Part shown: positions 1 to 42,900 of the stretch, piece by piece | Numbering within the stretch: the stretch's first letter is position 1 | How the letters are laid out: every line of letters begins with the position of its first letter | Source: a virus | Taxonomy: Duplodnaviria > Caudoviricetes | Virus record (IMG/VR): IMGVR_UViG_3300045131_001670 | Location: 1 to 44,227 of that record | Strand: one strand, 5' to 3' | DNA: 44,227 nt | Program-made: the position numbers and the translations under genes | The notes under the pieces: model-generated | Told to the model about the DNA's origin: nothing | Databases searched by the model: none | Seen by the model: the letters and a program-made list of their open reading frames with translations, nothing else

Positions 1-3000
1 TGTTTTTGAACCGATAGCTATATCAAATGTCATAGCATCAGCAGTTGCCGGAATATCTAAAATAATACTCGCACTCACCACTTGCTTGCGTTGCAATAAC
101 GGCTGTTCCCATCTTGCTGTTTCGTGATGGATATTACTAAATGCTCCAGTAAACTTATCGTAAAGCACAAGACTGGTTGATGCTGATGCGTTGACGTTTG
201 CTCCGATCGCATCGCCGGAATGCAACACCACAGTATGACCTGTAGAAATGCTTGATGTATTCCGTACCCACTTACCGCCAACGTCAAACTGATAACGATA
301 ACTGTCGGCAGCAGATGCCCCATCCGCAGGGAATGTTATTTCGTACCAGTGCTTATCCGGATAGTATACAGCGTATGCATTCTGTTTCTGTGTGGCAGTC
401 AAAGCACTGATGCGTTTGCGGATGCCTTTCAGTTCAACTATCTGCTCACCATTGAAAGAGTAAACGCTGTTATTACCTAACCAGCACAGTACTGAGTTTT
501 CGCACAGTTGAATGCTCTCGTGGCTATCGCACCCGATGGTATCATCAACAGGTGACATACCAAAATTAGTTTGTCCTGGATCTCCGGATATTCTCCATAC
601 CCCACGATTCTTAAATGCGAATACAAAGCCGCCGTACATTCCCAAACCTGTCAGTGCTTCGCCGTTTCCAACATCTATCCATCCGCCCATTTCCGGAGGG
701 GTGTCATCGAAGAATATGTCCGGACAATAATCAGCACGATTAATGCTTGATATGTAAATGCGGTTGTTTTTCGTATACCACATCCTGTTATGGTGTTCTG
801 ATATAATCTGACACCCTGCCGGAGGGCGGCTTGCATACGCCACCATAAATGGCTTGTTGTCCAAATTAATACCCAACATATGCACTGATGTTTTATCGGC
901 TTCAATGCTTGTCAGTAACACGAAGTCTGGTGATGTCGGGGTCGATATATAGATGTTTGTATATTTCGCTGTTGCACCGGCTTCCAGATAAATAGTAAAT
1001 CCGGATGTGGCACGATTAACATCAAAGGACATCTGCTCTGTCTGTCTGGATTCCACATAACCCATTTCGTCACGATAGATGTATGAATATCGCAGGTAAT
1101 AAGTACCCTGAGTTATGGGATTCGTAGTAGCAGTGTCCAGTGATACAACAGGCTTTACTTTAGGTGGTTGATAATCATCAAGAGTATAAACGCTTTGAAT
1201 CGTATTAGTGAAGAATTCCACTAATTGGACCCGATAATTTTCGCTGTCAACGACTGCTATTGTCCCATCATTTAATTGCTCTAATCCTAATGGGTTATTG
1301 AATTGTCCCGGTGCTGACCCATACGAACCGAAAAAGTAATAACTGTCATCAGCAAGAGTATATTTGCCAACACGATGGTTCTGATTATCGGTTAAGTAAA
1401 CATATGCATTATCATTTGACAACAGTAATCCTGCAATTTTAGTTGTCGTATCAGTAATAGTAAAAGTTTTAATTGTTGCACCAGTCGTTAAATTAAACTG
1501 ATAGAAAACGTTATTTCCTGTACTGTAATATCCAATACCATTTTTTACAGTCATCACTGTAGCGTTATTATTAGCCAATGTACACAATAAAGAATTATCT
1601 TTAAATGTGACAGTATATACACCAGAACCAGATTTTTCTAATTGAGTAATATAAACACGGCTTGCTCCGGAACTGGTATGAACACCTAACACATAATAAA
1701 ACGCAGAATCATAACTAATAGATGTACACGTTACGCCTGACGCTAAATTTGCTGTAGGACTGTACTCACCATTTCCATGACACCATAAAGCAGAATCTGT
1801 AATCGTGGTATTTACTACAATGTTATTTGTATCACCATAAAAAATACCAATAGTCGCTCCACCTATATTTGTAGCAGGAGTTACAGATGAAACGGAATTT
1901 GATAAAAGTCGTGGATAATATCTGCTGAAATATGTGTAATCATAATACAAAGCTTCCGATGTGACCATATCTGTCGAATATACAACACCATTTAACTGGT
2001 AATATATTTGTCCGGAATTATCAATATATAATCTGGCGTATATATTAGAAGAATTGCTTATTTTATAACTGGTTGGAGTTATAGGTGTCGTGGTTGTTTC
2101 ATCAAACTTAAACTTATAAATGTATGTATCAGTTCCCGGTACGTACACATAAATTAAATATATCCATCCACCATGTTCTTGAATACAATAATTAACATTG
2201 TTGACACCCAAATCATTATAGTGACTTGTTGCCACGTCATAAACTTTTCCATCAACTCCAGCATTAATAGCATATCTTGTGTTATCTGCTTGTACTTCAG
2301 TTGCTAAGTCAAGCAATGGAGGTTTGTATATCAAGTCATTATATTCTTGAATTCTAATGTTAGGAGATGCGTCTAAGTTATACGGCTTTCCAACAACTGC
2401 TATATGTTCGACACCTGATTCCATAACACTTTTAACAGCAATGGGAACCTGATTGTTTTTATACGAAGGCGAATTAGCCGCCGGTAAATACCCGGCACCT
2501 GGTGCTAAATCTCCCGGCGAAGATGACACGGCGTTTTTCAGTGGTGTTCCAAATATTTTTTTTACACGTGCTGTCCCATCAACAAAATACATACCGCCAT
2601 TTAACTCAGCAGCACGGATGGGATTAGCATGGTTAAGATTAATATCGCAGTCCAACTTTGATGTGGAAAACTTCATGGCATCGCTGTTGGTTATCATAAT
2701 GTCTGATGTTGTTCCGGATGCATTAGCAGTGTATAACACTAACCTCTTGCCACCAGTCACTGTATCGTAATCAGTGCGAGTTTCGTAATGCTCCCACAAT
2801 CTAACCTTTGTGCCACCACTGGTGATGGTAGCCGTTTCCCTTGCGACATCTGACTTTACCATCTTTGCTCCGGATGGTGTCAGCAGAACGTTCGCATTCT
2901 CCCAACAATCGTCATCACCTAATAACGAACGGCTATCGGTATCAAGATTGATACCTTTGTTAAACGTTATCACTTTTCCGATGTTGTTGTTCTTAGGCAT
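1..3000 (-). CDS. Tail nozzle / tail tubular protein B-like (P22 gp10-type) protein with internal NHL-repeat region; 3' end runs off the window
   Basis: Manual translation from ATG at 3000 (MPKNNNIGKVITFNKGINLDTDSRSLLGDDDCWENANVLL...) stays open for 1000 codons to position 1 (...FDIAIGSKT). Follows the adaptor gene. Has nozzle-like segments (HNRMWY..NRIYISS, IGCDSHESI) and an NHL repeat FGSYGSAPGQFNNPLGL...IAVVDSENYRVQ. Confidence 0.75.
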   Translation of the reverse strand, partial: MPKNNNIGKVITFNKGINLDTDSRSLLGDDDCWENANVLLTPSGAKMVKSDVARETATITSGGTKVRLWEHYETRTDYDTVTGGKRLVLYTANASGTTSDIMITNSDAMKFSTSKLDCDINLNHANPIRAAELNGGMYFVDGTARVKKIFGTPLKNAVSSSPGDLAPGAGYLPAANSPSYKNNQVPIAVKSVMESGVEHIAVVGKPYNLDASPNIRIQEYNDLIYKPPLLDLATEVQADNTRYAINAGVDGKVYDVATSHYNDLGVNNVNYCIQEHGGWIYLIYVYVPGTDTYIYKFKFDETTTTPITPTSYKISNSSNIYARLYIDNSGQIYYQLNGVVYSTDMVTSEALYYDYTYFSRYYPRLLSNSVSSVTPATNIGGATIGIFYGDTNNIVVNTTITDSALWCHGNGEYSPTANLASGVTCTSISYDSAFYYVLGVHTSSGASRVYITQLEKSGSGVYTVTFKDNSLLCTLANNNATVMTVKNGIGYYSTGNNVFYQFNLTTGATIKTFTITDTTTKIAGLLLSNDNAYVYLTDNQNHRVGKYTLADDSYYFFGSYGSAPGQFNNPLGLEQLNDGTIAVVDSENYRVQLVEFFTNTIQSVYTLDDYQPPKVKPVVSLDTATTNPITQGTYYLRYSYIYRDEMGYVESRQTEQMSFDVNRATSGFTIYLEAGATAKYTNIYISTPTSPDFVLLTSIEADKTSVHMLGINLDNKPFMVAYASRPPAGCQIISEHHNRMWYTKNNRIYISSINRADYCPDIFFDDTPPEMGGWIDVGNGEALTGLGMYGGFVFAFKNRGVWRISGDPGQTNFGMSPVDDTIGCDSHESIQLCENSVLCWLGNNSVYSFNGEQIVELKGIRKRISALTATQKQNAYAVYYPDKHWYEITFPADGASAADSYRYQFDVGGKWVRNTSSISTGHTVVLHSGDAIGANVNASASTSLVLYDKFTGAFSNIHHETARWEQPLLQRKQVVSASIILDIPATADAMTFDIAIGSKT

Positions 3001-3748
3001 AAATTGTCTGAGTCCTCTGGATGTCGCAAGCTTCATTCCATAATGACATTGCCGCTTGCGCCCTCGCAACACACGCAGGATCATCTGCAAGGATAGTCAT
3101 TCCTATACGACCGACCGCATAGAATATCGGTGCTTCTTCTACTTCCGGACGCAACACGAAAGATGACGCTCCGGAGGTGAGGACACCATACATACCTGTT
3201 CCCGGTGTGGCAACAGGGAAACATCGGATATTGAGTATCAGCGAATGAGTTGTGGTGATTTCTGTGGTGACATCGGTGATGATTGTTTCTACCGCAGGAA
3301 CTGTCGGACACGGCAGCAGGATGATAGATGGAACTGATGACGATGTGCTTGCCGACTGTTTTGAAACCCATGCGTATGTTGCCGGACCTGTATAGTTATT
3401 CTTTAAATAAGCTAATCCAAAATTGCTGATGGCTTCGGCTTCAGTAATAAACGTTATGTCACGATACTGATATGTAAACGTGGGTGTTCCACCATCTATT
3501 TTTGTCTGGATTGTTGTCTTATATACTATCCCTTTGATAGTTATTAAATCTTTAGGCAAGGCGTATTCCGCTGTTCCGGATACGATAGCGATGGTATCTT
3601 CACGATTAAGACAGTTGGTTTCCCGGCAAAACCTTGCGTAGCCATCGTTCAGATAACGCTCAACCATAGTTGAAGTCAAATGACTGTTATTAGTCGATGG
3701 CTCTTTAAGCATTTCGTATACTCTTGCTGTTGCATCTGTTAATGTCAT
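2993..3748 (-). CDS. Head-tail adaptor / tail tubular protein A-like
   Basis: N-terminus with YLNDGYARFCRETNCL then IVSGTAEYALPKD typical of podophage adaptor proteins; directly upstream of the nozzle-like gene. Confidence 0.7.
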   Translation of the reverse strand: MTLTDATARVYEMLKEPSTNNSHLTSTMVERYLNDGYARFCRETNCLNREDTIAIVSGTAEYALPKDLITIKGIVYKTTIQTKIDGGTPTFTYQYRDITFITEAEAISNFGLAYLKNNYTGPATYAWVSKQSASTSSSVPSIILLPCPTVPAVETIITDVTTEITTTHSLILNIRCFPVATPGTGMYGVLTSGASSFVLRPEVEEAPIFYAVGRIGMTILADDPACVARAQAAMSLWNEACDIQRTQTIYA

Positions 3749-17008: not shown

Positions 17009-17081
17009 TGGGCAGGGTGTGGGACTCGAACCCACAATACAGAGAGCGACTCTGCCACGATACCATTTCATCAACCCCACC
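17009..17081 (-). tRNA. Atypical tRNA-like gene (nominal anticodon CGC, Ala; possibly a pseudo-tRNA)
   Basis: G GTGGGGT TG ATGA-AATGGTA-TCGT G GCAGA-GTCGCTC-TCTGT ATT GTGGG-TTCGAGT-CCCAC ACCCTGC CCA. Full cloverleaf with canonical D and T loops and a non-canonical anticodon loop. Confidence 0.7.
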
Positions 17082-17356: not shown

Positions 17357-17731
17357 ATGTCTAAAAAATGGTGGTTTAAAATGCCAACCGAGTTATACAA
17401 AGAGCGGAACTATCTGCTTAAAGAAAGAGATGGCGGGTTAATCTATTCCATATACATCGCTATGCTTTCCGAAAGCGTTAAGTATAACGGCAAACTGATG
17501 ATGTCACAATCACAACCACACACCAAAGAATCATTAGTCAAACTAATAGGCATAGGAAACATCAGAACCATGAACAGAGTAATCGATATCCTACAAGCAC
17601 ACAAGCTTATAGAATATAGCGAAAAACACAAATACTACTTTATGACTGAAATACCAGAATTAACCATGTCCAGGCAAACACTTGCATCATATAGAGCAAA
17701 CAACAGATATAAAGAAATAGACGAAAAATAA
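17357..17731 (+). CDS. Phage replisome-organizer N-terminal domain protein (stand-alone or truncated)
   Basis: WWFKMPTELY...GGLIYSIYIAMLSES..NGKL...PHTKESLVKL...LIEY matches my recollection of the Phage_rep_org_N pattern; only 124 aa. Confidence 0.7.
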   Translation: MSKKWWFKMPTELYKERNYLLKERDGGLIYSIYIAMLSESVKYNGKLMMSQSQPHTKESLVKLIGIGNIRTMNRVIDILQAHKLIEYSEKHKYYFMTEIPELTMSRQTLASYRANNRYKEIDEK

Positions 17732-17797
17732 CCAAATGTTTCGTCAAAGTTTGACCAAACATTTACGAAACTTTAACCAAAGTTTGACCAAACTTTT
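17731..17797. repeat. Iteron-like direct repeats (possible origin)
   Basis: CAAAGTTTGACCAAAC occurs twice, with degenerate copies (ACCAAATGTTTCGT, GAAACTTTAACC), directly after the replisome-organizer ORF. Confidence 0.6.
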
Positions 17798-18693
17798 ACT
17801 CTCACTCCCTCTCAAAAAAAACATACAGTTGGTATACAAAACGGTATACACAGTTATAATAAGATGTAGCTTTGAGATCGTGGGGTATTCCGGCATACGC
17901 CGTACCCCCGACACGGCACGAAGCGCATAAAGCCAATTCTACACAAAACACAAACCCACAAAAAAAATACCACCCACTACCACGCTAACAACAACCGCCA
18001 AAGCACCACCCTTTCGGTATTTGAGATGTTGGGAAAATGGGGCGAGGGGGTATGATGACATAAATGGAACGGGCGGTCGGCGAACGGGTTCGCTACTACC
18101 CTACACACAAAACCACCTATTGGAACGCTCCAAATGAATGCTGATTGACCTGATTGGATCCAGTAATCAGGCAGAATGATACCAATGAAGGGGGAGGGGT
18201 GGGGATTGGCATTGCTGCAGGAAGATCGCAGCAGGTTGCCCGGACAATACCGCCATTTGGCAATTAACGTCTGATAATGACCATTTTGTAAAGTGAATTT
18301 AGCATCATTACAACATTTTACAACACCTGTTTAGCAGATGTAGCTTTAATACCGATTATTGCGGACAAATGCAGGATTTCTGGCCGCCAGGCGGATTCTG
18401 GGCATTTGGCGCAAATGTGCTATTCGTTGAGAGGGCGGAGTAGCATTATTGTGCCAAATTGGAGTTATCACCCTATGCGTCCGTGTATCGGGAGCGGTTC
18501 CGGTGGCAACCTATCATATCTCCCTTCTCCCCGTCATTTTTCTATAAATCCTTCATTTTGCCGCTATTTTCGCCATTTCCATCCTTATATATGCAATAGC
18601 CGTATTAGGTACGATTTAAATCATTATTTCCTTCTCATCGACATTATTTTTCAATTATTTTCAAAAAAAGTGGTAAAATTGACCAAAAAGGGG

Positions 18694-18722
18694 TTGACGC
18701 CCCTTGCTACGAGGTATATTAT
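18694..18722 (+). promoter_or_regulatory. Strong early promoter of the plus-strand cassette
   Basis: TTGACG-17 nt-TATTAT preceded by A/T tracts (UP-element-like). Confidence 0.8.
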
Positions 18723-18775
18723 AGGTATCAGGATAGCGATTTGAGAGGGAATCCTCAGTAATATGTTTCTATTTG

Positions 18776-18843
18776 CCTTTAGTAGCGGTCTGGACGAACT
18801 CCAGAAGATACCATTTAAACGTGGTGATAAGACGGTCTGAGGC
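18776..18843 (+). ncRNA. Unclassified three-way-junction RNA candidate
   Basis: Closing GCCTT(T)AG/CTGAGGC; hairpins TCTGGA-CGAAC-TCCAGA and TACCA-TTTAAACG-TGGTG; purine-rich linkers. Confidence 0.45.
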
Positions 18844-18845
18844 TA

Positions 18846-18909
18846 TATGATGTCATGGCGGTATTTTCCGCTATCTGACGATGGTCTAATTTAAGACCGA
18901 AACATTATA
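18846..18909 (+). ncRNA. Hammerhead ribozyme, type III
   Basis: Stem III TATGATGT/ACATTATA, GTC cleavage triplet (cut after 18854), stem I ATGGCGG/CCGCTAT, core CTGACGA(T), stem II GGTCT/AGACC, GAAA. Confidence 0.9.
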
Positions 18910-18922
18910 GAGGGGTAATATC

Positions 18923-19144
18923 ATGGGTTTCTACAAACGTTATAACACACGGCGATCGCTTTATGTTACTAAGGCTCGCTTTGACAGCACCTGTGCTGAA
19001 ACCGGACAGCTTATTAAGACTGGAGAAGAGATGGTTTACGACCCTAATACACGGCAGTGTTACCATTCTAATAGTATTCAAGCTAAAGAGACCAGACAGC
19101 AAGCATGGAATGAAGCTAACTGCATGGCTGATAGCAATTGGTAG
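18923..19144 (+). CDS. Small early phage protein
   Basis: AGAGGGG RBS; KARFDSTCAETGQLIKTGEEMVY motif; first ORF after the promoter and hammerhead. Confidence 0.75.
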   Translation: MGFYKRYNTRRSLYVTKARFDSTCAETGQLIKTGEEMVYDPNTRQCYHSNSIQAKETRQQAWNEANCMADSNW

Positions 19145-19208
19145 AATACTCGCACTGACGAGCGGTATGCGATAATCAAAATATAATCGCAAAATAAGGG
19201 GTGTTATC

Positions 19209-19385
19209 ATGAAAATCTATGTTGTGTGGGAAATTCCACGTGGTGGAGATTATGAAGAATTCCGTGGTGAGTTTTCCAACCGAATTAATGCAATTAACTT
19301 TGCGTCTAACCTTTCGGGTAAAATCCGGATAGCGGTAATTGATATGGCTATACCGCCGCGCTTTGACCGATCATTATTGCGTTAA
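19209..19385 (+). CDS. Small early phage protein (58 aa, not in the ORF track)
   Basis: AAGGGGTG RBS; MKIYVVWEIPRGGDYEEFRGEFSNRINAINFASNLSGKIRIAVIDMAIPPRFDRSLLR. Confidence 0.7.
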   Translation: MKIYVVWEIPRGGDYEEFRGEFSNRINAINFASNLSGKIRIAVIDMAIPPRFDRSLLR

Positions 19386-19417
19386 CCATTTTCTCCCCGA
19401 TCGTTCTTCGGTCGGGG

Positions 19418-19481
19418 TCTTCTAACTCTACTACCGCTTAATGGTAGCTGTCGGCAGTCAGCATTGAAGAGGACCGGAAGG
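19418..19481 (+). ncRNA. Twister ribozyme, P1 type
   Basis: P1 TCTTC/GAAGG; T^AA (cut at 19423/19424); P2 CTCT/AGAG; P3 TACC/GGTA; P4 GCTG/CAGC; L4 TCGGCAGT; pseudoknot T1 CGG/CCG after the conserved GA; pseudoknot T2 AC/GT. Confidence 0.88.
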
Positions 19482-19491
19482 GGGAAATCCA

Positions 19492-19815
19492 ATGATCGTG
19501 TTAACTTACACACGTCCTGACACTGAGGGCGACATCTTACAGTGGCGGTTCCCGACAGTGGGGCATCTGCTTGATTCCCATGATTGGGACAACGATGGCT
19601 ATCTGGATGCGATTTATGACGGCATCCGGCAGAACGATGCTGATATCGATGTCATCATCTGCGAGATTGAAGACGAGGGCAATCAGTATGACTGGACCTT
19701 GTATATGACTAACGCCATTAGTGAGCAGGACTTCTGCGATTACTGGAATCTTTACACTGAAGAATGGTGCAGTCCTGAGGGCATCGCTCCGGTTTGGCGA
19801 GCGAGTGTCGAATAG
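19492..19815 (+). CDS. Small highly acidic early protein
   Basis: AAGGGGG RBS; 107 aa with 24 D/E, 4 R and no K. Confidence 0.75.
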   Translation: MIVLTYTRPDTEGDILQWRFPTVGHLLDSHDWDNDGYLDAIYDGIRQNDADIDVIICEIEDEGNQYDWTLYMTNAISEQDFCDYWNLYTEEWCSPEGIAPVWRASVE

Positions 19816-19817
19816 TA

Positions 19818-19882
19818 TCTGCTCTGACGATGGGTCGTTGACTCCGACCCGAAACCGCAAGGATGCGGTCAGCAGAAGTCAA
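19818..19882 (+). ncRNA. Hammerhead ribozyme, type I with loop-II pseudoknot
   Basis: Stem I TCTGCT/AGCAGA, core CTGACGA(T), stem II GGGTCG/CGACCC, GAAA, stem III ACCGCA/TGCGGT, GTC (cut after 19870). Loop II TTGACT is complementary to AGTCAA at 19877-19882. Confidence 0.93.
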
Positions 19883-19911
19883 TTACTGCAAAATTAAGGG
19901 GGGACCATATT

Positions 19912-20178
19912 ATGGTAATAACTTGTCATGACCACGGCGATAGCGTAGCTGACCGCTTTAGCGTGGTATTCTGGAGCGAATTTGATGAAGAGTCAGGTTT
20001 ATATCCAGTTACGTTTTTTTCAGCCGATTGTGATAAACCGAATGGTGTTTGCCAGCATGATGCTATTCCTGAAAAGTGGATAGCTAATCTGGGTGTGCAG
20101 ATAGAATTCGAAGAGATGCCGAAAGCTTGCCAGAAGGTTGCTAACAGGGAAATGGACGAATTAATGGGGAGGCTTTAA
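19912..20178 (+). CDS. Small acidic early phage protein
   Basis: Poly-G RBS; DHGDSVADRFSVVF...PNGVCQH...LGVQIEFEEMP resembles an uncharacterised phage family. Confidence 0.75.
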   Translation: MVITCHDHGDSVADRFSVVFWSEFDEESGLYPVTFFSADCDKPNGVCQHDAIPEKWIANLGVQIEFEEMPKACQKVANREMDELMGRL

Positions 20179-20179
20179 G

Positions 20180-20452
20180 ATGGCTGTTCATTCATATGAT
20201 TGCTTCTTGCATCCGTTTATTTCGGGGCAAGTCAACCGATTGTTGATTAATGGTAATACTGCCGCAAGGCGTGACGCTCAGGGTCAAGTGGCGGTATACG
20301 TTAATGTGTGGGGTCGCCGCCATCAGGGCATTATGCTGCGCTTGTGCAAGGCTCTGGAACATGGCGGTGTCGACTATGCGTTGCTGTCCGGAAAAATAGA
20401 CAGCGGTGTCGTTCTGGACGAAAATAACGAGATTATTGGGGAGGTTATATAA
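20180..20452 (+). CDS. Hypothetical early protein
   Basis: GGGGAGG RBS; abuts both neighbours. Confidence 0.7.
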   Translation: MAVHSYDCFLHPFISGQVNRLLINGNTAARRDAQGQVAVYVNVWGRRHQGIMLRLCKALEHGGVDYALLSGKIDSGVVLDENNEIIGEVI

Positions 20453-20745
20453 TGCCAATGATTGCCGTTGTGCTTCCGCCGTCAGTCGTCCTGCATGGCT
20501 CTGGTTGCGATAAATTCCGCTATGTCACCGGATTAACTACTGACATCGTCAATCACGCTGTAGCGATCGGTGGCGAGGGCGTAATATTACTCCAACATTC
20601 GCATACTCGCTATCGTGGTGAGCGGTACAAGATGATAATACCTTACCGCAATCTCAAGCGGTGGCAGTTCCGGTCCGTGCCTAATCGTAAATTCGATGAT
20701 GGGCAAATATTTATAATTGAGGAGATGTCGAATGAAGAAGTTTAA
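20452..20745 (+). CDS. Hypothetical early protein
   Basis: GGGGAGG RBS; TAATG coupling with the previous gene. Confidence 0.7.
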   Translation: MPMIAVVLPPSVVLHGSGCDKFRYVTGLTTDIVNHAVAIGGEGVILLQHSHTRYRGERYKMIIPYRNLKRWQFRSVPNRKFDDGQIFIIEEMSNEEV

Positions 20746-20905
20746 AGAGAACCTGATAATGGTGGTTCTGATCCTACTTGTTTGGGCGGTAACCTTCCCT
20801 GTAGCGTTTGTCGAGTATACTAAGACAGGTTACTGCTTTTCCCTGCTAATACTCCCATGTTTGGGGGTGTGGGGCATTGAAGAGATCTTAAAACGTATCC
20901 GATAA
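20732..20905 (+). CDS. Small two-TM membrane protein
   Basis: Start MKKFKENL after a GAGGAG RBS; two hydrophobic segments; last gene before the terminator. Confidence 0.65.
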   Translation: MKKFKENLIMVVLILLVWAVTFPVAFVEYTKTGYCFSLLILPCLGVWGIEEILKRIR

Positions 20906-20913
20906 TGAATCCG

Positions 20914-20958
20914 GCGGTCCAGTTGGGGATAAAACCCTGATTGGACCGCTTTTTTTTT
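20914..20958 (+). terminator. Intrinsic terminator closing the early cassette
   Basis: 15-bp stem GCGGTCCAGTTGGGG/CCCTGATTGGACCGC followed by T9. Confidence 0.9.
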
Positions 20959-21384
20959 GGCTATTATTTGAATCGTTCCAAATTGACCTGTGTTGGTTGC
21001 GATTTGGGTTGGTGGGGGGTAAGGTGCTGTGGATTCTGACCTGAGGGATTTTATTGGGGAAAGTTGGCAAAATTTGGGTATAGCCGGGGCGGTGGATGGT
21101 GGCATAATTCATCACCTGGACAGTTGGCTGCCAATTCCGTGGTGCCAGGAAAATGGTACTTCGCTGCCAACTTTCGGGCGGTCCAGGGGGAGGGGACGGC
21201 AGGGGTCGCCGGGGTGTCCGGGCGGTGCTATGGGGAGTTGCAACCAAAACCACCTGATGGCGATATTTTCAAATTTTCGGTTTGGGTGAAATATTTCAGA
21301 AAACGGAAAGATTCCGGTCACGCACCATACCCGACCGGAATCTTACTGACAAAACGTTATTCAGTTATCCAGATTACCAAAACT

Positions 21385-21636
21385 TTATATTGCATCACCT
21401 CCTTTTTCTTTCTGTTGGCGGATGTCGGCTTCATCTATCCTGCGTGGGACGACCCGGATGTCGATATCTACGGCGAATGTGGATTGGCACTTGCGGCAGG
21501 TGGCGATGTTTCTGATTAAAGTTTTATCTTTTATTTGCCGCTCAGTGAAAAATGCCAGTGTCTGGTCGGGATCTCCGCATCGTGGGCAGGTGGTTTTAAA
21601 TATCATCGCTGTTCTCCTCGTCCATCTCTCCAACAC
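21385..21636 (-). CDS. Small zinc-ribbon protein (start probably MIFKTTC at 21606)
   Basis: CPRC...CRKC. Confidence 0.6.
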   Translation of the reverse strand: MLERWTRRTAMIFKTTCPRCGDPDQTLAFFTERQIKDKTLIRNIATCRKCQSTFAVDIDIRVVPRRIDEADIRQQKEKGGDAI

Positions 21637-33931: not shown

Positions 33932-36900
33932 TTACTTGTACACCCCTTTTTTATATTTTTTCACAATTGTGTTGTATTCTTCTGGTGTTAATTTAACCTT
34001 GTTCTCTTTTTCGTAATTTTCCAAAGTTAATTTAATCAGCGAATCATTTAACACACGCTCGTCCAGAATCTTGTTCTTGTCATTATTCAAGAACAGCAAC
34101 AGTTTCCGTTTTGCATCATGTATGTTGGTATTCGGGTCATCTAATTCAAACCCGATCGGTTTATTCCGCAACAACTCTTGAACATCTTCAGAATCAAATT
34201 GCCGCACAATCTTTTCGGCTTTAGTTGTCGCCGATATCATATTAAGCTTGCCTGATAATTCAGCGTAATGCAGATACTCCATCGGGTTTAGTTCTTTATA
34301 TAATGGAGAACCTTTTTTACCTTCTGTCAGTCGGCGTTCGTACTTTTTAATATCTTCATAAACATCGTTCTGCTGCTGGGATATCATGCCTTCCTTTGGA
34401 ACCCAACTGGAGATACCGGGCATTTTCTCTTGCAGGTCAATGCTCGGCTGTGGCGGCAGTAACTTACCTTTACCCACAAGACCTATAATATCTAAAACAT
34501 AACCGCCTAATCGCCCTGCATGACCTGTAAACAGCGTCTGGATAACTCGTGGTGATTGCATTAACTGGGTCACGGAATTGCTGACACCTGTTTGTTTTTC
34601 AGCCATTGCAATCATCTTACCGATTACCATCGCACCCTTGCTTGTATTAGCACCTGCTTGCATATAACCCGGCAATCTCTTTTCGGATTCCGGAATTAAC
34701 GGAGTACCTGCAAATGTCCTGTTCCAATATATTTGCATTTCTGGAGATATGGCAGTAATTGGGAATGGTGTTGCAGGTGACTGAGCAAGTATGCTTTGCT
34801 CAATATGCCGCCAAGCTTTCGGGTCCTTTTCAACTGCTGTTCTCAGTATACGCTCAGGAATAGCCTTAAACAGCAACCCATACATATACGGCAACGGAAC
34901 CATCACAACGCCTTTCGGTGTGCGTACCCAGAATATTTTATCACGGATATAATCTGGTAATCTGTTATAATCCTCATCGTCTTTATTGCGGAAATATAAA
35001 ATTGTTGCCGGTAAAGTTAATCCCAGTACACCACGCATAATTGCCATTCCACGTGTTTCCGGATTGCGTAGTGTGCGGTAGTCACGATAGTTACCTTGCA
35101 GGTTACTATTCAAAAACGCCCATACCTTGTTGGCTCCGGTTTTCTTTACCCATTCACCTTTCTGTTGGAATGGCATCTGGTCGATAGCGTCATATACTGC
35201 CTGTACCAACTCATCACGAGTTTTGGCATCTGCCCATTTTACCTGTGACCCATAGTGCGTAAATTTGGCGTACAGGTCAGTCATGGAAATGAAATCTTTA
35301 TAACTGTTATAGCCATTGGAAAACACCTGTATAAACCGCTCTCTCATGTTCTGAGGAGGACGCATCTTATCGAGTGCTTCCTTAACTCTCACACGATCCG
35401 CTCCAACAAGTGATGCTCCATAACCCACAGATATATTAAACTGTTGCCATACTGAGTCAGGTGCTTTACCTGTAGCAATATATTTCCATGCGTTAATCAT
35501 GTCTTTGGGAGTAATCTTAACTGTCCGGTTAATCATGATGGCTTGCATATCACGCACAAGGTTAGCTGACATAAAGTCAGGGTTATCGATTGCGCCGATG
35601 CGCAGGAACTCGGTCATTTGTTTTAACGCTTTCCATGTGTTTGGTTCAGTGACAGTTAACATTCGGAAAATGTCGGGAGCAACTTCATAGAATTCCGCTT
35701 TGCCGTTTCTGTATATTCTGACGACATTGCTCTTGCCGTTATATGACCCACCGGGAATAAACAAGGTCCTATCTTTCTGGATGTCTACCAATGACCCAAT
35801 GCTTTGTCCTTCCGCAGCAGATACAATATCCTCAATGGTTAACGTTTGCATCTTCATTGGTGCAGGAATTGGGTCGGCGAATACGCCACCACCACGAATG
35901 CGTCTGGCTAAATCGACAGTAGTGGTAATCATTTCGTTTCTTGCAGCGATGGAATGATAAAGATATGTATCACGAATGATAGACATTATCGGGTCATGCA
36001 TTGGCAATAATGAACCTTTGCGTTCATAGGACTTTTTAGATATTTCTCCGCCCTTCTGTTTGCCACCAGTTTCCATTTCGACATCACGATACAACGGCAC
36101 ATAGTGCGGTCGTTTCTGTCGCCATGCCTTCGCATCTTCTGCTGATATTAATCCTTGCTCAACACGGAAGTTAAGCAAGTGTTCCTGATATCTATATATG
36201 CGGTCAGCCAACGCTTTATATTTGGCTTCCGTCTGTTTCACCACGGCTTCATACGTTTCTTTCGGCAACGGAACAACTTCGTCATTACCTTTCTCGTTGA
36301 TGTAGTCAATGGATTCTTTCGCAATCAGGTAACTGCTGAATTCTTTCATCTCTTCCGGCGACAATCCCTTCACGATGTCCTGTAACGGCTCGGAAATGAT
36401 TTTATTCATATTATCCGTAACACCTTTACTAATCCACGCAGAGGGAACGCCAGACACCTTAGCAAGTGCGGATAAAACCTTCGGGTTGCTGGTTGCCGGA
36501 AGTTTTGTGCCAGTCTGGTTTTCGTACATCTGCACCATCTGTTGCAGTACAATCTCGTCATCAAACAATGCCCGAATAACTTTATTTTCCCCGGTCAGGA
36601 CGCTATCAGATTTTGGTTTCTGTGGGTCAGTAACGATTGTCGACATCACCTGTTGCAATGCTGACTGGTTCTTAAACGACAGCACCTGCTTTCGCAACAA
36701 CTGGATGCCTTTGGACAACTCGGCGTTCTTACCGAGCTGGGATTCAAAGTATTTATAGAATGTCGGAGCGTCAGCCAACGCCTTCGCCGGATCGTAAATA
36801 TAATCTACCATCCATTCGGCAAATCCTTCAGTCATTTTATCTTTAGCACCAGCATACGCTAATGGTTCGAGTTCCGGAGCGAACGCTGGCGGTATCGGCT

Positions 36901-39900
36901 TGAGATTACGTCCGGACATTCCAATCACAACACTGTGGAAGAAGTGACCATTCTCGTGAATCATTGTCTGGATGTCGCCGGGCGTTTTGATGCGAATAAC
37001 ATCTGTAAACGGCTTAAATATACCAAGCACACCTTTACCGGCACGGAATCCACCTTTACGGCTTTTCAGTCCGATGCTGTTTAGTGTGTCGATAATATCG
37101 TTCAGAGTATATACTTCATCGTTAGGAACGCCTGGACCATAAGTTGGTGCAGCCTGTTTTTTATTGCCCATGCTTGTTGACATCAGCACTTCTTCCGGCG
37201 GCGGTGGCGGTACAGGTTTGCCATTGCTATCCAGAGTTGTCGGCATCGGCACTGGCATCAGATTTTTCTTATATCCTTCCTTAAGAAATTCGGTGACTTG
37301 TTCGTTTCCTTCTTTAGCCACTGATAACAGTTGTTTGCCATCAAAGAATGCATGACCATTACGCATATCCACAGGAAGGAATTTTACTGTCTTTTTATCG
37401 TGGTCAAGTTTATAGAACAGGTAATCTTTTTTCCCGAATGCGGTAGAGTAATCAATAGGTCTATCCATTGCCACCATTTGTTTTCCGTCTGTGGTAATGG
37501 CTACATATGGTGGTAACCCATTAGTTTCAGTCACTTCTCCTGTTATATCATCTACAATTATACGTGCCTTTGCAGTATTCCAATCAGGCAATACCTTGTT
37601 CATTACTTCGTCATACTTGTGTTCGGTGGCTGTGGAAAACTTTTCCGTCTTTGCCGTTTCCTGCCCCGTAGCGAGTGATGCTTCTGGTTTTGGGGGAATA
37701 GGTGCAGTAGTTAAATCAGGGTAATTTGTAAGCACTTCTGGCGGTACGTTTTTACCTTTAGATAACGCATAAATAATATCTTTTTTAGTAAATCCAAAAT
37801 TATCTGGTATTTCTTCGGGCTTTCCTTGTTTATTCCAAAAATTTACTTCTGTATTTTTAATTTTTTCTTTTGCTATATCAATTAGATTTTTAGGTATGTT
37901 TATACCGTTTGACATATTTTTAATTTTATTTAAATCTTTATTGTTAAGTGTTTTTTCGTGAGAAAACGGCAAATCAGAATCTAACAATATTTCATTATCA
38001 CCACCTCTTGTTTTAGATAATTCACCTTTTAATATATGTGGTTTAGCATTACCTTGAATAAAATTATATTCTAATATATTTTTAGCCATAGTTTGTATTA
38101 ATTCTTTAGCTTTTAATTCTAAAGATTCTCCAACTCTTGACCTTACAACAGTTTCAATATAATTTGGAAATATATTATTAACACTTATACCATCTTCGTT
38201 TATATTAAAATTAGCAGCATTTTTACTTTTTTCTCCAATTTTAGGAATAGTTTTTGAATATCTTATAACAAGATTTTCACCATTTAAAACTCTATTAAAA
38301 ATATTTTCAACAGATTCTATCGTTTTGTTAACGTCAACAACTTGATTAGGTTTAACAGGTGCGGATTGTGGTGTTTTCTGCTCTTCCGATTCTTTTAAAC
38401 CTTTTTCGGATTTGGTACTAAACCTTATATCCGAATTCTTCCCACTGAAGTCGCCGTTGTTGCCTGTGGCGGACTTTATTTGGGTATCGTTGAAGGCAAA
38501 AATGACATCATTTTCAAGAGGAATACCATCGTATCCGTTTTTAAATATGATTCCATCTTTACCTTTGTTTTGTGCTTCATATACTGCGTTATTTTTAAAA
38601 CCATTAATATCATATATTTTCTTACCATTAATTTTAAAATACATATTTTCTGTATGATATTGCTCTGCATATTTTTTAGCGTCAATGATAAGAGGATTTT
38701 TTAAGCTGACATATAAATCCATTATATTGTCAGTCTTTTTTACACCACGCTGTTGTTCTTTAACAGTATATTTATCATTATAATATTTAGCTACCTCTTT
38801 TGAAGTTGTCAACCATATCCCATCAACTTTATTTTGATCGCCAAATCTCGTATTGGTTTTCGTATCAAATACAGTAAATTCCGCATTTGTCCCATGATAA
38901 ACCACCATAGGTCTACCCTGCTCGTCAACAACCTTAGAATCCCCGAACCACTTGTTGAAGTTTTTAATGCCTTCTTCAGTCGGGTGGATAGGCTGACCGA
39001 GAGAGTTTTCGGATTTGGTGGAGAACTGCTTGCTGCTGGGAGTTGTTTTTGCTGCCAAACGCTGAGCATCTTTAATAGACTTGTCCATAGCTTTAGCGGC
39101 TTTCTCTTGAGCCTTAGCCACTTCTACCTGAGCAGGACTCATCAACTGTCCTTTATACTCAACAGTATCACGTTTCCATTTTATAGGCATCTTATCATTT
39201 AATATATCATTAACCGCCTTATCAACGGACGGCATATGTGGGTCTTCTATCGGAGGAGCATAACCTTTCAGCATCTCCTGATTAAGCTTGTCATCAAAAA
39301 TAGGCTTAACGGCTTTTTGTTCAATAAATTGTCCCTCGTTATTATAAATCTTTCTGTCAATAATTAACTTATAATAATCTGGATTTATTTTTAACTTAGG
39401 GTCATATCGATACGGCAAACCTTCGCCATCTGCGGATATCTTTTTACCAGTAGGTTCTCCTTTTTCGTACACAAACTGAGGGAAGACTGGAGTGATACCA
39501 TAGTCTTCGCACATTTCAAGATATTTCTGTACATTTCCTTTATGTTCTTTAAACGGCGGTGTTACTAATTTGAAATCAGTTGAACCTGCTGTTTTACCAA
39601 CACCCCACGCACCACCATATTTTTCATTCTTTTTCATGTTATCTTGAACAATTTGTTTTTCTTCCGCTGATAAACGCCCTCTACGCCATCCTGCTATTTT
39701 ACTACCCTGGGTCTCTGTGTAGTCTGTAAAATCCATATTTAACGCCATTCTTCTTACTACACCTAATCCTGACCTGTGGTACGGAATAATATAGTCAATG
39801 TTTTTATCTGCCATCAATGCCCATATATGCTCGTCAGATGCCCCGATAGCAACAGTACCAACAGTATCACTATATAATTTACGTAACTCTAAAGCTATCT

Positions 39901-42900
39901 CTAATGGCATCCCTTCTATAGGGTCAAACATTAATTTACCTTCAGCATCAAATCCCGGCTTTAAACCTTTTATTGATACTGGTATTAATGATAAATTAAT
40001 CATCATTCCTGTCTTGCCAAATGCCCTTGCAAAGTCCGGAACTTTTGTATAGGCGTGTCCTTTTAATCCGACCATGCTCATATCTACGATAGCTTGCATA
40101 CCATCAAGAAGATGATGTAGTTCAAAGTCTGACCATGATTGCCATCGTTGTCCTGATTCGTCATTTGCTAATTCTAAATATTCTCGTCCTTTCTTAGATG
40201 AATAAAACTTTCTTATCTCATCGCTGTACTCAGTACGAGTTTCTGTAGCCTTAGCGTTTACCGCAGAAAATATAGCACGGACATCTTCAAACGGATGGCG
40301 ATATTTATTGCTATCTGCTTTATTAGGGTCGTACTTAGGGTTATCGTAATTATATTTAGGGTTATCAGATTTCATATCTGCCAATAAAGTATCTAACCCT
40401 TTTTGCGTAAGGAAATACTCTTTCGGAATATTAGGGAATCTGTCCATAACTTCATTCAATAAATTGCCAACAAACATTCGTTTGGTTTCTACATAACATG
40501 GTCCACACGAAACAGCAATTCCATTATTTTTTAAAATCTCACGAATATACAAGAACTCAGAATCATTTACCGCTCGTCCCAGTTTCATCTGAACTGATTC
40601 TATTGTAGCTTGCATAATATATCTTTTCATACATAACGTAGAAAAGTCTACAGATTTTTTATAATGTGGGTCTGAATTATTTTTTAATGGAGAATATAAA
40701 TCTGACGGCACATAGTCTAATCCTAAATCAGCATTCTCAATAATAAAAGCAGTCACATTGTCTAACGATTTAACCCAATCATTAACTTCTTTCTCAGAAA
40801 TATTATGATCTTTTGCCCATTGAATAACTTGTTCACGTTCTCTTTGCCATGAACCAATAGAAAACTTACTGCTTGGTGCAATAGCATCTGCTGACTCACT
40901 CATAATAACACTGTCTACCGCAGCGTTAAACTCTTCTGACAATTGCTTATTTGCCGCTTTTTCTTTTAAGTTCTTCTTCTCAATACCAGCAACATCTAAT
41001 TCTTGTGGCTTTCTGTTCCAAACCTCGCCTGACCGCATCTGTGAAAAGATTCTTTCTGCTGCGGCATTGTTCGGTGTCAGTATCTTATTGACAATGTTCT
41101 GGAAGAATCTTTTAATCTTTCCGAATATTGTATTCGGAACAGGCTTATCATTCCAGTTCTCATAAGCTATGGCAATATTTTCTTCGTTGCCATACTTGCG
41201 TACTAACGCCGTATATTCTTTTTCTGTTATTGCTCCCATCTTGAATGCGGCGTGAGCAACCTCGTGGTATACAGTTCTGCCTGTACCGATGTTAAAAGGT
41301 TTCTCGGCTGTCCCACGTGCGATACTGATGACACCATCAATGCCTAAAATTTTCTTACCATCAGCGTCTACAATATCGAACATACCATTAGCGTAGTAGC
41401 CTTCCTGTAAATCCGCATTGTCAATTTTATCTGGATTTTTAAAGCGGAATTTTCTACCGCCAATTTCAACATCAAAACTGCCATCTTCTAATTGCACCAC
41501 AGATGTCGCTGTCGGCATTGCCGCTTTAATCATGTTGGCATTTAAGCCGTTGACCGGGTTATCATTATGGTCACGAATGTCCCAGTTTTTATTTTTCGGA
41601 TTCCACTCTACTTTTAACCCTGTACCATCTTCATGCACAACAACAAATCCCTTGCCTGTTTTATACACGTCAGACATCGGGAAATGGTTATATATATTCT
41701 GCATAGCAGATTCCATGATAGGAGAAGATGGGACTACCTCGGCATTTTTCAGTGGTATTCCTTCGGGAAAATATTTTTCCATAATGTCAGGATACTTTAA
41801 TGCCATAACCTTAATCATCGGGGTAATTCTTTTTCCTTCAATTGCCCTGACAATAATGTCATGCTCAGCAGAACCTTTATTTCCATTCAATTCTACAGTT
41901 AAGTTTCTTGACCATTCTCCCGACTCTTGTTGGCGTACTATTTCACCTTCTTTAGTTAACGGAATAAAAGGCTCATACTCTCCAACTTCCTGTTTATACT
42001 TTTCTTCCCACTGATAAGCCTTGCCCATACTCTCTTTCTTTTTTTCTTCTACCTGAGCAACAAAGGCTTCTTTGTCATCAACGACAAAGTACCCCAAATT
42101 AGGATCGCTATTAATAATCTCATCCTGAGTTCGCTTATCAAACTTCGTAAAGGTTTCTTTTGATTTGATTAACTGTTGGTCAAAAGATTCAAGAGCCTGT
42201 TGCAACTGGTCAATAGTTTCGCCTTCCTGTGCCTTAGTCGGGTCTTCCTGTAACTCTTTAATCCTTTCTTCAATACCACGTTTGGATATTTCAAGATACC
42301 TGATAGCCTTAGCAGTGCTTTCAGCGGATTGACGCTTAACACGAATCTTCGTTCTATCCCCCTGTACTGCCCCTATTGCCCCAAGTACGCCGAATAAGGC
42401 ATTCTCGTATGTAAACAACTCTGGCGACATCTGGAGAGCCATGTTGGTCAAAACACCCATTGTTGCGCCGGTAGCACCCTTTGCTACTTCACGCCCTACC
42501 TTGCTTGCTACATTGTCCATGAGCGGTGTCAGTTTACCAGTGATAGCATGAGATAATCCACCAACAACATTCATGTGGATAATTTCTCTCTTCAGTTCTT
42601 CCGGATCAATTTTCTCGCCAGCCATCGCACGACCGATTGCGCCTTCCAACGGAATCGCTGTATTAACCATGATGGTGGATAACGCTTCACGCATCCCCGG
42701 CTTAAGCGAACCCAACACGCCTTCAGCAGTTGTTGCTGTATTGGCAATCTTTTTAGCGATATAGCTTTTCTCTAAAATCTTTTCGGGGATAAGTATCTTA
42801 GACGCTAATTTAGCGGCGGCTTCCCCTCCCCACATAAATTGTGGCAGTTGTGCCGTTAAGCTTGCAGATGCATATACTTTTGGGTCTACCTGCAAATCCT

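What the first reader, a model, noticed from the sequence alone, without database searches (positions are those of the whole stretch)
18694..20958. Ribozyme-punctuated early operon: hammerhead and twister ribozymes predicted to cut one transcript into gene-sized pieces
Seen in sequence: one promoter (18694) and one terminator (20914) enclose seven small ORFs on the opposite strand to nearly all other genes. Each spacer before the first four ORFs holds a ribozyme or a relic just ahead of the RBS: type III hammerhead (cut 18854), decayed hammerhead (19155), twister (cut 19423), type I hammerhead (cut 19870). Established: both classes self-cleave to leave 5'-OH and 2',3'-cyclic phosphate ends, they are known to cluster near small phage genes with unclear purpose, and T7 has its early mRNA cut by host RNase III. 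Inference: this is a host-independent RNA-processing system for host-takeover/anti-defence genes, using interchangeable ribozyme classes. Predicted products are about 125 nt, 569 nt, 447 nt and about 1.09 kb.
Basis: partly seen in the sequence, partly recalled or inferred. Interest (0 to 1): 0.92.

Follow-up and report, generated by a model that had tools for sequence, protein, structure and literature searches.

The report
Ribozyme scaffold with swappable phage genes
An uncultured freshwater phage places three self-cutting RNA motifs between the small genes of one operon, and a close relative keeps the same three motifs in order with different sequence between them, so they likely cut the message into separate pieces that insulate swappable genes, a layout known in prophages since 2011.

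Summary
A type III hammerhead (cut 18854), a P1-type twister (19423) and a type I hammerhead with a 6-bp pseudoknot (19870) are intact. Related strains show compensatory base changes in all three. The 19155 'relic' looks like a type I hammerhead that lost its middle and cannot cut. Promoter, terminator, seven ORFs and fragment sizes match. The idea is not new: clustered hammerheads cutting prophage operons were described and tested in vitro in 2011 (PMC3088659), and this scan found the layout before on other DNA. Cleavage and expression are untested. An anti-defence role of these seven ORFs is unsupported. Verdict: real, new member of a known kind.

The parts
18694..18722 (+). sigma-70-type promoter (-35 TTGACG, 17 nt, -10 TATTAT), A/T-rich upstream; start site predicted near 18729
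   Evidence: 10 of 12; one of 7 strict consensus sites in the window; 18690-18750 present at >=99% identity in related-strain contigs
18775..18843 (+). conserved structured leader of unknown class: irregular closing helix, two hairpins (about 18789-18805 and 18809-18826), invariant junctions
   Evidence: fold. Strain B has 9 substitutions and 6 indels in 18788-18827 that keep both hairpins (worked out by hand), and no listed change in 18772-18787 or 18828-18845. No Rfam family near its cut-off
18846..18909 (+). type III hammerhead with extra U after A9; predicted cut after C18854
   Evidence: (z -3.6). Strain C: two double compensatory changes in stem II, two G.U to Watson-Crick changes, one loop change
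18923..19144 (+). ORF1, 73 aa, hypothetical phage protein
   Evidence: ESM Atlas look-alikes at 0.95-0.96, viral hypothetical clusters; no PHROGs or Pfam hit; absent between the same ribozymes in strain B
19150..19172 (+). probable relic of a type I hammerhead: stem I, CUGACGA and GUA triplet kept; stems II/III and GAAA missing; cannot cleave
   Evidence: only such pattern in the window; 1 of 5000 spacer shuffles, descriptor defined after seeing it; model R1 15.1 bits, E 0.02
19209..19385 (+). ORF2, 58 aa, unknown
   Evidence: absent in strain B
19395..19417 (+). P0 hairpin ahead of the twister; would be the 3' hairpin of the ORF1-2 fragment
   Evidence: 9 bp; inside the block kept in strain B, which begins at 19389
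19419..19480 (+). P1-type twister ribozyme with P3; predicted cut after U19423
   Evidence: P1, P2, P3, P4, T1 and T2 all pair; aligns in register with 32 phage twisters, with compensatory T1/T2 changes; two double changes in P3 in strain B
19492..19815 (+). ORF3, 107 aa, very acidic (24 D/E, 4 K/R), unknown
   Evidence: no usable Atlas hit; replaced by 242 other nt in strain B
19818..19882 (+). type I hammerhead with extra U after A9 and a 6-bp pseudoknot (loop II 19838-19843 with 19877-19882); predicted cut after C19870
   Evidence: 58.9 bits, E 8e-16 with a model built from 59 other phage hammerheads; C-G to G-C change in stem III in strain B
19912..20178 (+). ORF4, 88 aa, member of an unannotated small-protein family common in phages
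   Evidence: 25 relatives at E<=0.001; confident model, pLDDT 93; no solved fold match; skipped in strain B
20180..20905 (+). ORF5-ORF7 (90, 97, 57 aa), tightly coupled, no ribozyme between them
20913..20958 (+). intrinsic terminator
   Evidence: z -5.9

Best explanation
The three motifs are intact hammerhead and twister ribozymes that are predicted to cut one promoter-to-terminator transcript into a 126-nt leader and three mRNAs (ORF1-2, ORF3, ORF4-7), and they likely act as natural insulators at the joints of a gene-swapping array. Shown: intact cores and tertiary contacts, compensatory changes in relatives, and retention of all three ribozyme/RBS blocks while the sequence between them is replaced. 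Inferred: each cut gives the downstream cargo a fixed 5'-OH end 41-68 nt ahead of its start codon and leaves structure on the upstream piece (P0 hairpin, or hammerhead stems II/III). Translation and lifetime of a gene would then not depend on its upstream neighbour. The conserved blocks would also offer homology for recombination that exchanges cargo between co-infecting relatives.
For: Structures. Of 17 single-letter differences tested in the three ribozymes, 12 keep a pair (10 of them as 5 double changes), 4 are unpaired, and 1 breaks the outermost stem III pair. One 1495-nt contig in run X13 joins 18759-18916, 303 other nt, 19389-19486, 242 other nt and 19819-19904, then runs into an ORF5-like start; run X12 shows the same joints. 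In other phages, 62 of 76 type I hammerheads of this set lie within 30 nt of the upstream stop codon and 49 of 71 within 60 nt of an SD-led ATG, against 412 of 4300 random positions and 2 of 98 on the opposite strand. 21 of 52 hammerhead-bearing loci hold two or more on one strand, none on both strands. Three similar arrays cleaved to the expected sizes in vitro and one in E. coli (PMC3088659, passages).
Against: No cleavage or transcript was observed for this locus. Insulation or stabilisation is inferred; the host and its RNases are unknown. ORF4-family genes mostly do without a detected ribozyme: 5 of 80 loci have one nearby on the same strand and 1 of 80 directly upstream. ORF5-7 have none between them. 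The slot before ORF2 has decayed, so a cut is dispensable there. I did not see the inserts of strain B, so that they encode ORFs is inferred from their length and position behind an RBS. Runs X12 and X13 may come from one sampling campaign. Folding gave no consistent gain in SD access after cutting.
Confidence: 0.6

Rival explanations
1. Cutting is a timer: the 5'-OH and cyclic-phosphate ends would send the pieces to host nucleases, so these genes are expressed in a short burst.
For: glmS self-cleavage is followed by RNase degradation (PMC6765202 section 13). After the type I cut at 19870 the downstream mRNA starts with a short, weakly structured end.
Against: Pieces retain hairpins at their ends (stem I of the type III hammerhead at the 5' end of ORF1-2; P0 at its 3' end). 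Each gene keeps a strong G-rich SD.
Confidence: 0.2
2. The ribozyme blocks persist mainly as recombination anchors or hitch-hiking elements in a hypervariable region, and cutting is of little use to the phage.
For: Junctions between strains fall at the edges of the ribozyme/RBS blocks. One slot has decayed. Near-identical hammerhead repeats occur within single arrays in other phages.
Against: Changes are compensatory and catalytic cores and pseudoknots are invariant, which points to selection on the fold. The three blocks here are unlike each other, so they cannot recombine within the genome.
Confidence: 0.1
3. Cutting switches on translation by removing upstream sequence that hides the SD, as an anti-SD at 19388-19396 could for ORF3.
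For: The block kept in strain B begins at 19389, and this tract can pair with the SD (-8.1 kcal/mol). Unconstrained folding raises SD access after cutting for ORF1 (0.31 to 0.57) and ORF3 (0.51 to 0.64).
Against: With the twister helices enforced, the anti-SD helix adds no stability (-28.6 against -29.5) and SD access falls after cutting (0.44 to 0.19). ORF4 hardly changes (0.40 to 0.44).
Confidence: 0.07
4. Pieces bounded by a 5'-OH and a cyclic phosphate are ligated into circular mRNAs.
For: The end chemistry of the 569- and 447-nt pieces would allow it (established chemistry).
Against: No circular or spliced products were detected for similar arrays (PMC3088659). No RNA ligase was among the 30 window proteins scanned against PHROGs.
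Confidence: 0.03

Closest known systems
Clustered hammerhead ribozymes flanking single genes or short gene blocks in prophages (Perreault et al. 2011, PMC3088659; passages read)
   Same: Several ribozymes on one strand, each between small variable genes; processing to operon- or gene-length mRNAs proposed; pseudoknot-stabilised hammerheads; gene identities 'not constant'.
   Different: Here two hammerhead topologies and a twister share one array with a defined promoter and terminator. Cargo exchange is seen between close strains with ribozyme order kept. No ardA. Cleavage was not tested here.
Bacterial and phage self-cleaving ribozymes of several classes lying near each other (reviews PMC6765202 and PMC6155905; passages and section 13 read)
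   Same: Different motifs close together flanking small non-conserved ORFs; purpose stated as open.
   Different: Nothing in kind; this is a compact, fully bounded example.
Type-P1 twister ribozyme (Rfam RF03160)
   Same: UAA at the cut, GA before T1, P1-P4, both pseudoknots and the 8-nt L4 loop.
   Different: T1 is CGG/CCG, T2 is AC/GU, and C replaces A at the trans A.A pair. A-to-C there was tolerated in PMC11662667 (passages), and L479 has the same C. No Rfam hit.
Hammerheads with an extra core nucleotide (De la Pena and Flores 2001; only the title seen in reference lists; its position between A9 and G10.1 is recalled)
   Same: One extra base after A9.
   Different: Here it is a U, in a large phage family of types I and III: 92 of 105 hammerheads in loci selected by a pattern that demands it.
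HK022 put RNA (PMC9378689; passages read), for the leader only
   Same: About 70 nt, two adjacent stem-loops, just downstream of a phage promoter.
   Different: The leader has an extra closing helix and short hairpins. No sequence comparison with put was run; it is a lead only.
RNase III processing of T7 early mRNA; synthetic ribozyme insulators such as RiboJ (both recalled, no call)
   Same: A polycistronic phage message is cut ahead of ribosome-binding sites; a ribozyme fixes the 5' end of an mRNA.
   Different: No host nuclease is needed, and ends are 5'-OH rather than 5'-phosphate; natural rather than engineered.

Membership tests
Hammerhead ribozyme (18846-18909 type III; 19818-19876 type I) | Core CUGANGA, GAAA, UH with A15.1-U16.1 | tested here: met
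   both carry one extra U after A9
Hammerhead ribozyme (18846-18909 type III; 19818-19876 type I) | Three stems closing the core, with covariation | tested here: met
Hammerhead ribozyme (18846-18909 type III; 19818-19876 type I) | Tertiary contact between stems I and II | tested here: inconclusive
   Met for type I: 6-bp pseudoknot; in the family 43 of 74 have >=4 pairs against a mean of 19.8 (max 30) with shuffled partners. For type III only a U-starting loop I and A-ending loop II seen by eye
Hammerhead ribozyme (18846-18909 type III; 19818-19876 type I) | Score above an Rfam hammerhead cut-off | tested here: not met
   Rfam also missed this type in 12 other phage loci, so this is a library cut-off, not a structural feature
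Hammerhead ribozyme (18846-18909 type III; 19818-19876 type I) | Self-cleavage | not testable with these tools
   no RNA holder listed
Hammerhead ribozyme (19150-19172 relic) | GAAA and stems II and III | tested here: not met
Type-P1 twister | P1, P2, P4 and pseudoknots T1, T2 | tested here: met
Type-P1 twister | Catalytic A after the cut, general-base G, conserved L1/L4 residues | tested here: met
   UAA, GA and L4 UCGGCAGU; the one departure, A to C, was reported as tolerated (PMC11662667)
Type-P1 twister | Score above the RF03160 cut-off | tested here: not met
   the same cut-off caught a twister in 2 of 8 phage twister loci
Type-P1 twister | Self-cleavage | not testable with these tools
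   needs an in vitro assay
Clustered prophage ribozyme arrays (Perreault 2011) | Two or more ribozymes on one strand flanking single genes or short blocks in a phage | tested here: met
Clustered prophage ribozyme arrays (Perreault 2011) | Variable gene content between ribozymes | tested here: met
   (inserts differ; their coding content was not seen)
Anti-defence / host-takeover operon | Cargo with a known anti-defence family or fold | tested here: inconclusive
   no family or fold assigned; other arrays carry ArdC-N (1 of 59) and Mu Gam-like genes (5 of 115)
put-like antiterminator (leader) | RNA-only antitermination through RNA polymerase binding | not testable with these tools
   only position and two-hairpin shape match

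The most novel reading that the evidence does not exclude
The array is a natural insulated expression chassis: fixed ribozyme/RBS posts let phage relatives exchange anti-host cargo genes without changing their expression. The conserved three-way-junction leader ahead of the first hammerhead is a new functional RNA class, either a put-like antiterminator that carries polymerase through the hairpin-rich array or an undescribed self-cleaving motif.
Probability: 0.2. Interest if true: 0.75.

Novelty: new member of a known kind. Interest (0 to 1): 0.42.

Why it matters
Why bacteria and phages carry clustered self-cleaving ribozymes is stated as open in the reviews read (PMC6765202, PMC6155905). This 2.3-kb unit has a clear promoter, terminator and three cut sites, and natural strains differ between the ribozymes but not in the ribozymes. 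It can therefore be used directly to test insulation against timed decay. The extra-U hammerhead family (about 530 viral stretches estimated to match the pattern; 52 of 75 loci examined passed the structure test) is missed by Rfam, so such arrays are undercounted. The leader is a lead for a new RNA motif.

Tried and rejected
Rfam on the window and on the leader: no ribozyme family; best hits far below cut-off. Expression: no RNA holder listed. Run X20 gave two 151-nt contigs of depth 2 and X19 none, which is uninformative. Relatives by protein: ORF3 gave one spurious 9-aa match, ORF1 none. The word-index search returned only self for ORF4 and ORF1. tblastn of ORF1 and ORF4 in GenBank phages gave no match. 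The terminase search gave one identical contig that lacks the array and five distant ones; its best isolate hits are about 30% identical, so no host could be assigned. The variant-twister pattern gave 66 loci, 0 real twisters. Leader homologs: 4 metagenome matches and 2 viral matches were chance, and nhmmer over the loci held found nothing. By eye the leader did not fit twister, pistol, hatchet, hairpin, HDV-like or twister-sister consensus; these were recalled, not tested. Class swap ahead of homologous genes: none among 85 first-position proteins, where all 18 homologous pairs had the same class; the one case found is L452. ORF3 model unusable (pLDDT 44). ORF4 fold: no match in PDB (best Z 5.2), only uncharacterised phage proteins. 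Anti-SD switch not supported (the P0 helix was mis-specified and redone). The genome collection scan gave a descriptor hammerhead in 9 of 122 loci. Literature searches listed no paper on cargo exchange between fixed ribozymes, but the library lacks most subscription papers. Roth 2014 and Weinberg 2015 were not read, and no supplements were opened; Perreault's Dataset S1 may already hold the extra-U family.
Full report
Setting. The window is a 44.2-kb virus record of a tailed phage: terminase, portal, head proteins, RecT/exonuclease, RusA, amidase and a 3336-aa protein with ART-PolyVal and LPD38 domains. Listed runs that hold the stretch are labelled lake or freshwater metagenomes; 9 of them may be its source. 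The host could not be assigned.

Observation. The promoter-like site, seven SD-led ORFs and terminator are at the stated places. Promoter-like sites alone are not above chance in this region (11 against 9.1). Rfam reports no ribozyme, so I wrote structure descriptors. On both strands of the window they return the type III hammerhead (cut 18854), the type I hammerhead (cut 19870), the twister (cut 19423) and two weak twister-like hits elsewhere. Twelve shuffles gave 3 loose and 0 strict hits. Every tested pair is complementary, including twister T1 and T2 and a 6-bp pseudoknot between loop II and the 3' tail of the type I hammerhead. A covariance model built from 59 hammerheads of other phages ranks the type I motif first (58.9 bits), the type III core second and the 19148-19182 element third (15.1 bits, E 0.02). 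That element keeps stem I, CUGACGA and a GUA triplet but lacks GAAA and stems II/III. It lies 5 nt after the ORF1 stop, where type I hammerheads of this family sit (median 2 nt), so a deletion relic is plausible, and it cannot cut. The twister aligns in register with 32 phage twisters. Those sequences were selected by structure, so their covariation is partly circular. Pair-preserving T1/T2 swaps retained activity in PMC5113685 (whole text read), and A-to-C at the A.A pair was tolerated in PMC11662667 (passages).

Relatives. Contigs laid on the region show two other strains. Strain C (X12 record 3, X13 record 8; depth 5.8 and 2.9) keeps ORF1 (and ORF2 in X12) and differs at seven positions in the type III hammerhead: two double compensatory changes, two G.U to Watson-Crick changes and one loop change. 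Strain B has two double changes in twister P3 and one in stem III of the type I hammerhead; one change breaks the outermost stem III pair of the type III motif. A single 1495-nt contig of strain B (X13 record 9; same joints in X12) runs leader/hammerhead III/RBS, 303 other nt, P0/twister/RBS, 242 other nt, hammerhead I/RBS, then directly into an ORF5-like start. ORF1-2 and ORF3 are replaced and ORF4 is absent, while the three ribozymes keep class and order. The inserted letters were not shown, so their coding content is inferred. The two runs may be one campaign, and two indel rows were hidden.

Between promoter and first hammerhead, about 18775-18843 folds as a closing helix with two hairpins. 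Strain B has 15 listed differences in 18788-18827, which by hand reconstruction keep both hairpins, and none in the flanking junction strands. It matches no Rfam family, and I found no homolog elsewhere. Its position and size recall HK022 put RNA (PMC9378689, passages), which is a lead only. Covariation rests on one divergent strain.

How general. A pattern for hammerheads with an extra U after A9 returned 124 viral stretches, about 530 estimated. After dropping 5 overlapping or twin loci from the first 80, 52 of 75 held a descriptor hammerhead and 21 held two or more on one strand; some arrays are close relatives of each other. The layout stop codon, ribozyme, SD, small ORF is strongly preferred. 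In the 3 of those arrays that mix types I and III, type III comes first, as here. Mixed hammerhead-twister arrays occurred in 3 of 53 twister-bearing loci from 126 examined. Cargo is mostly unannotated: 4 of 59 first-position proteins (59 of 61 sent) and 22 of 115 nearby proteins (115 of 128 sent, near-duplicates dropped) had a Pfam hit. These include ArdC-N, five Mu Gam-like, GemA and LPD11. ORF4 belongs to a small family. Of 80 phage loci picked by that family alone, 4 had a descriptor ribozyme on the same strand and 0 on the opposite, and Rfam added L452. L452 has four type II hammerheads, one directly ahead of the ORF4 homolog (33% identity). Ribozyme type ahead of a homologous gene can therefore differ, but 75 of 80 loci showed no ribozyme by these tests.

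Mechanism. Shown: intact ribozyme anatomy under purifying selection, and exchange of the sequence between fixed ribozyme blocks. Inferred with high confidence (about 0.9): cutting at the three sites. Inferred with moderate confidence (0.6): insulation, in which each cargo block gets a standard 5'-OH end and structured termini regardless of its neighbour, and the blocks double as recombination homology. Timed decay (0.2), neutral anchors (0.1), SD unmasking (0.07) and circles (0.03) are the rivals. Anti-defence function of these ORFs is untested; ORF3 is the most acidic protein among the 7 array ORFs and 52 minus-strand ORFs scored.

Comparison and novelty. Perreault et al. 2011 (PMC3088659, passages) already described multiple hammerheads flanking single genes or short blocks in prophages, with variable genes. 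They proposed processing to gene-length mRNAs, showed cleavage of three arrays and saw no circles. Reviews note mixed motifs near small ORFs and call the purpose open (PMC6765202, PMC6155905, PMC8782182; passages). Earlier notes of this scan report the same layout, including twister-hammerhead mixes, on other genomes; I had reached that reading from the paper before the look-up. The finding is real and well preserved but a new member of a known kind. Its value lies in the strain-level scaffold evidence, the Rfam-invisible hammerhead family and the unexplained leader. Interest 0.42.

Noticed in passing
window 18775-18843 (+): Conserved two-hairpin, three-way-junction leader ahead of the first hammerhead, with structure-preserving changes in strain B; no Rfam match and no homolog found.
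   Followed up: partly
window 17010-17080 (-): tRNA-Ala (CGC) called by ARAGORN, not reached by Rfam gathering.
   Followed up: no
window 17734-17799: Two near-identical direct repeats with dyad elements right after the replisome-organizer-like gene 17357-17731; candidate replication origin.
   Followed up: no
window 17800-18690 and 20960-21385: Long stretches without a convincing gene flank the array on both sides; the 3' one is well conserved in related strains.
   Followed up: no
window 33932-43942 (-): 3336-aa large polyvalent protein with ART-PolyVal and LPD38 domains.
   Followed up: no
L003-L126 (loci): Large phage family of type I and III hammerheads with an extra U after A9, often with a loop II pseudoknot, missed by Rfam gathering.
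   Followed up: partly
L206, L223, L247, L268 and others, near position 2470-3060 on the match strand: Twister ribozymes lie shortly upstream of Mu Gam-like and GemA genes in several Mu-like phages.
   Followed up: no
L452 2901-5901: Array of four type II hammerheads, each ahead of an SD-led small ORF; the first precedes an ORF4 homolog.
   Followed up: partly
window 19611-19803, run X12 record 6: A further variant contig shares only part of ORF3, with unrelated sequence on its 5' side and a jump to 20175 on its 3' side (ORF3 end, type I hammerhead and ORF4 skipped), so a junction inside a gene and loss of a ribozyme also occur.
   Followed up: no
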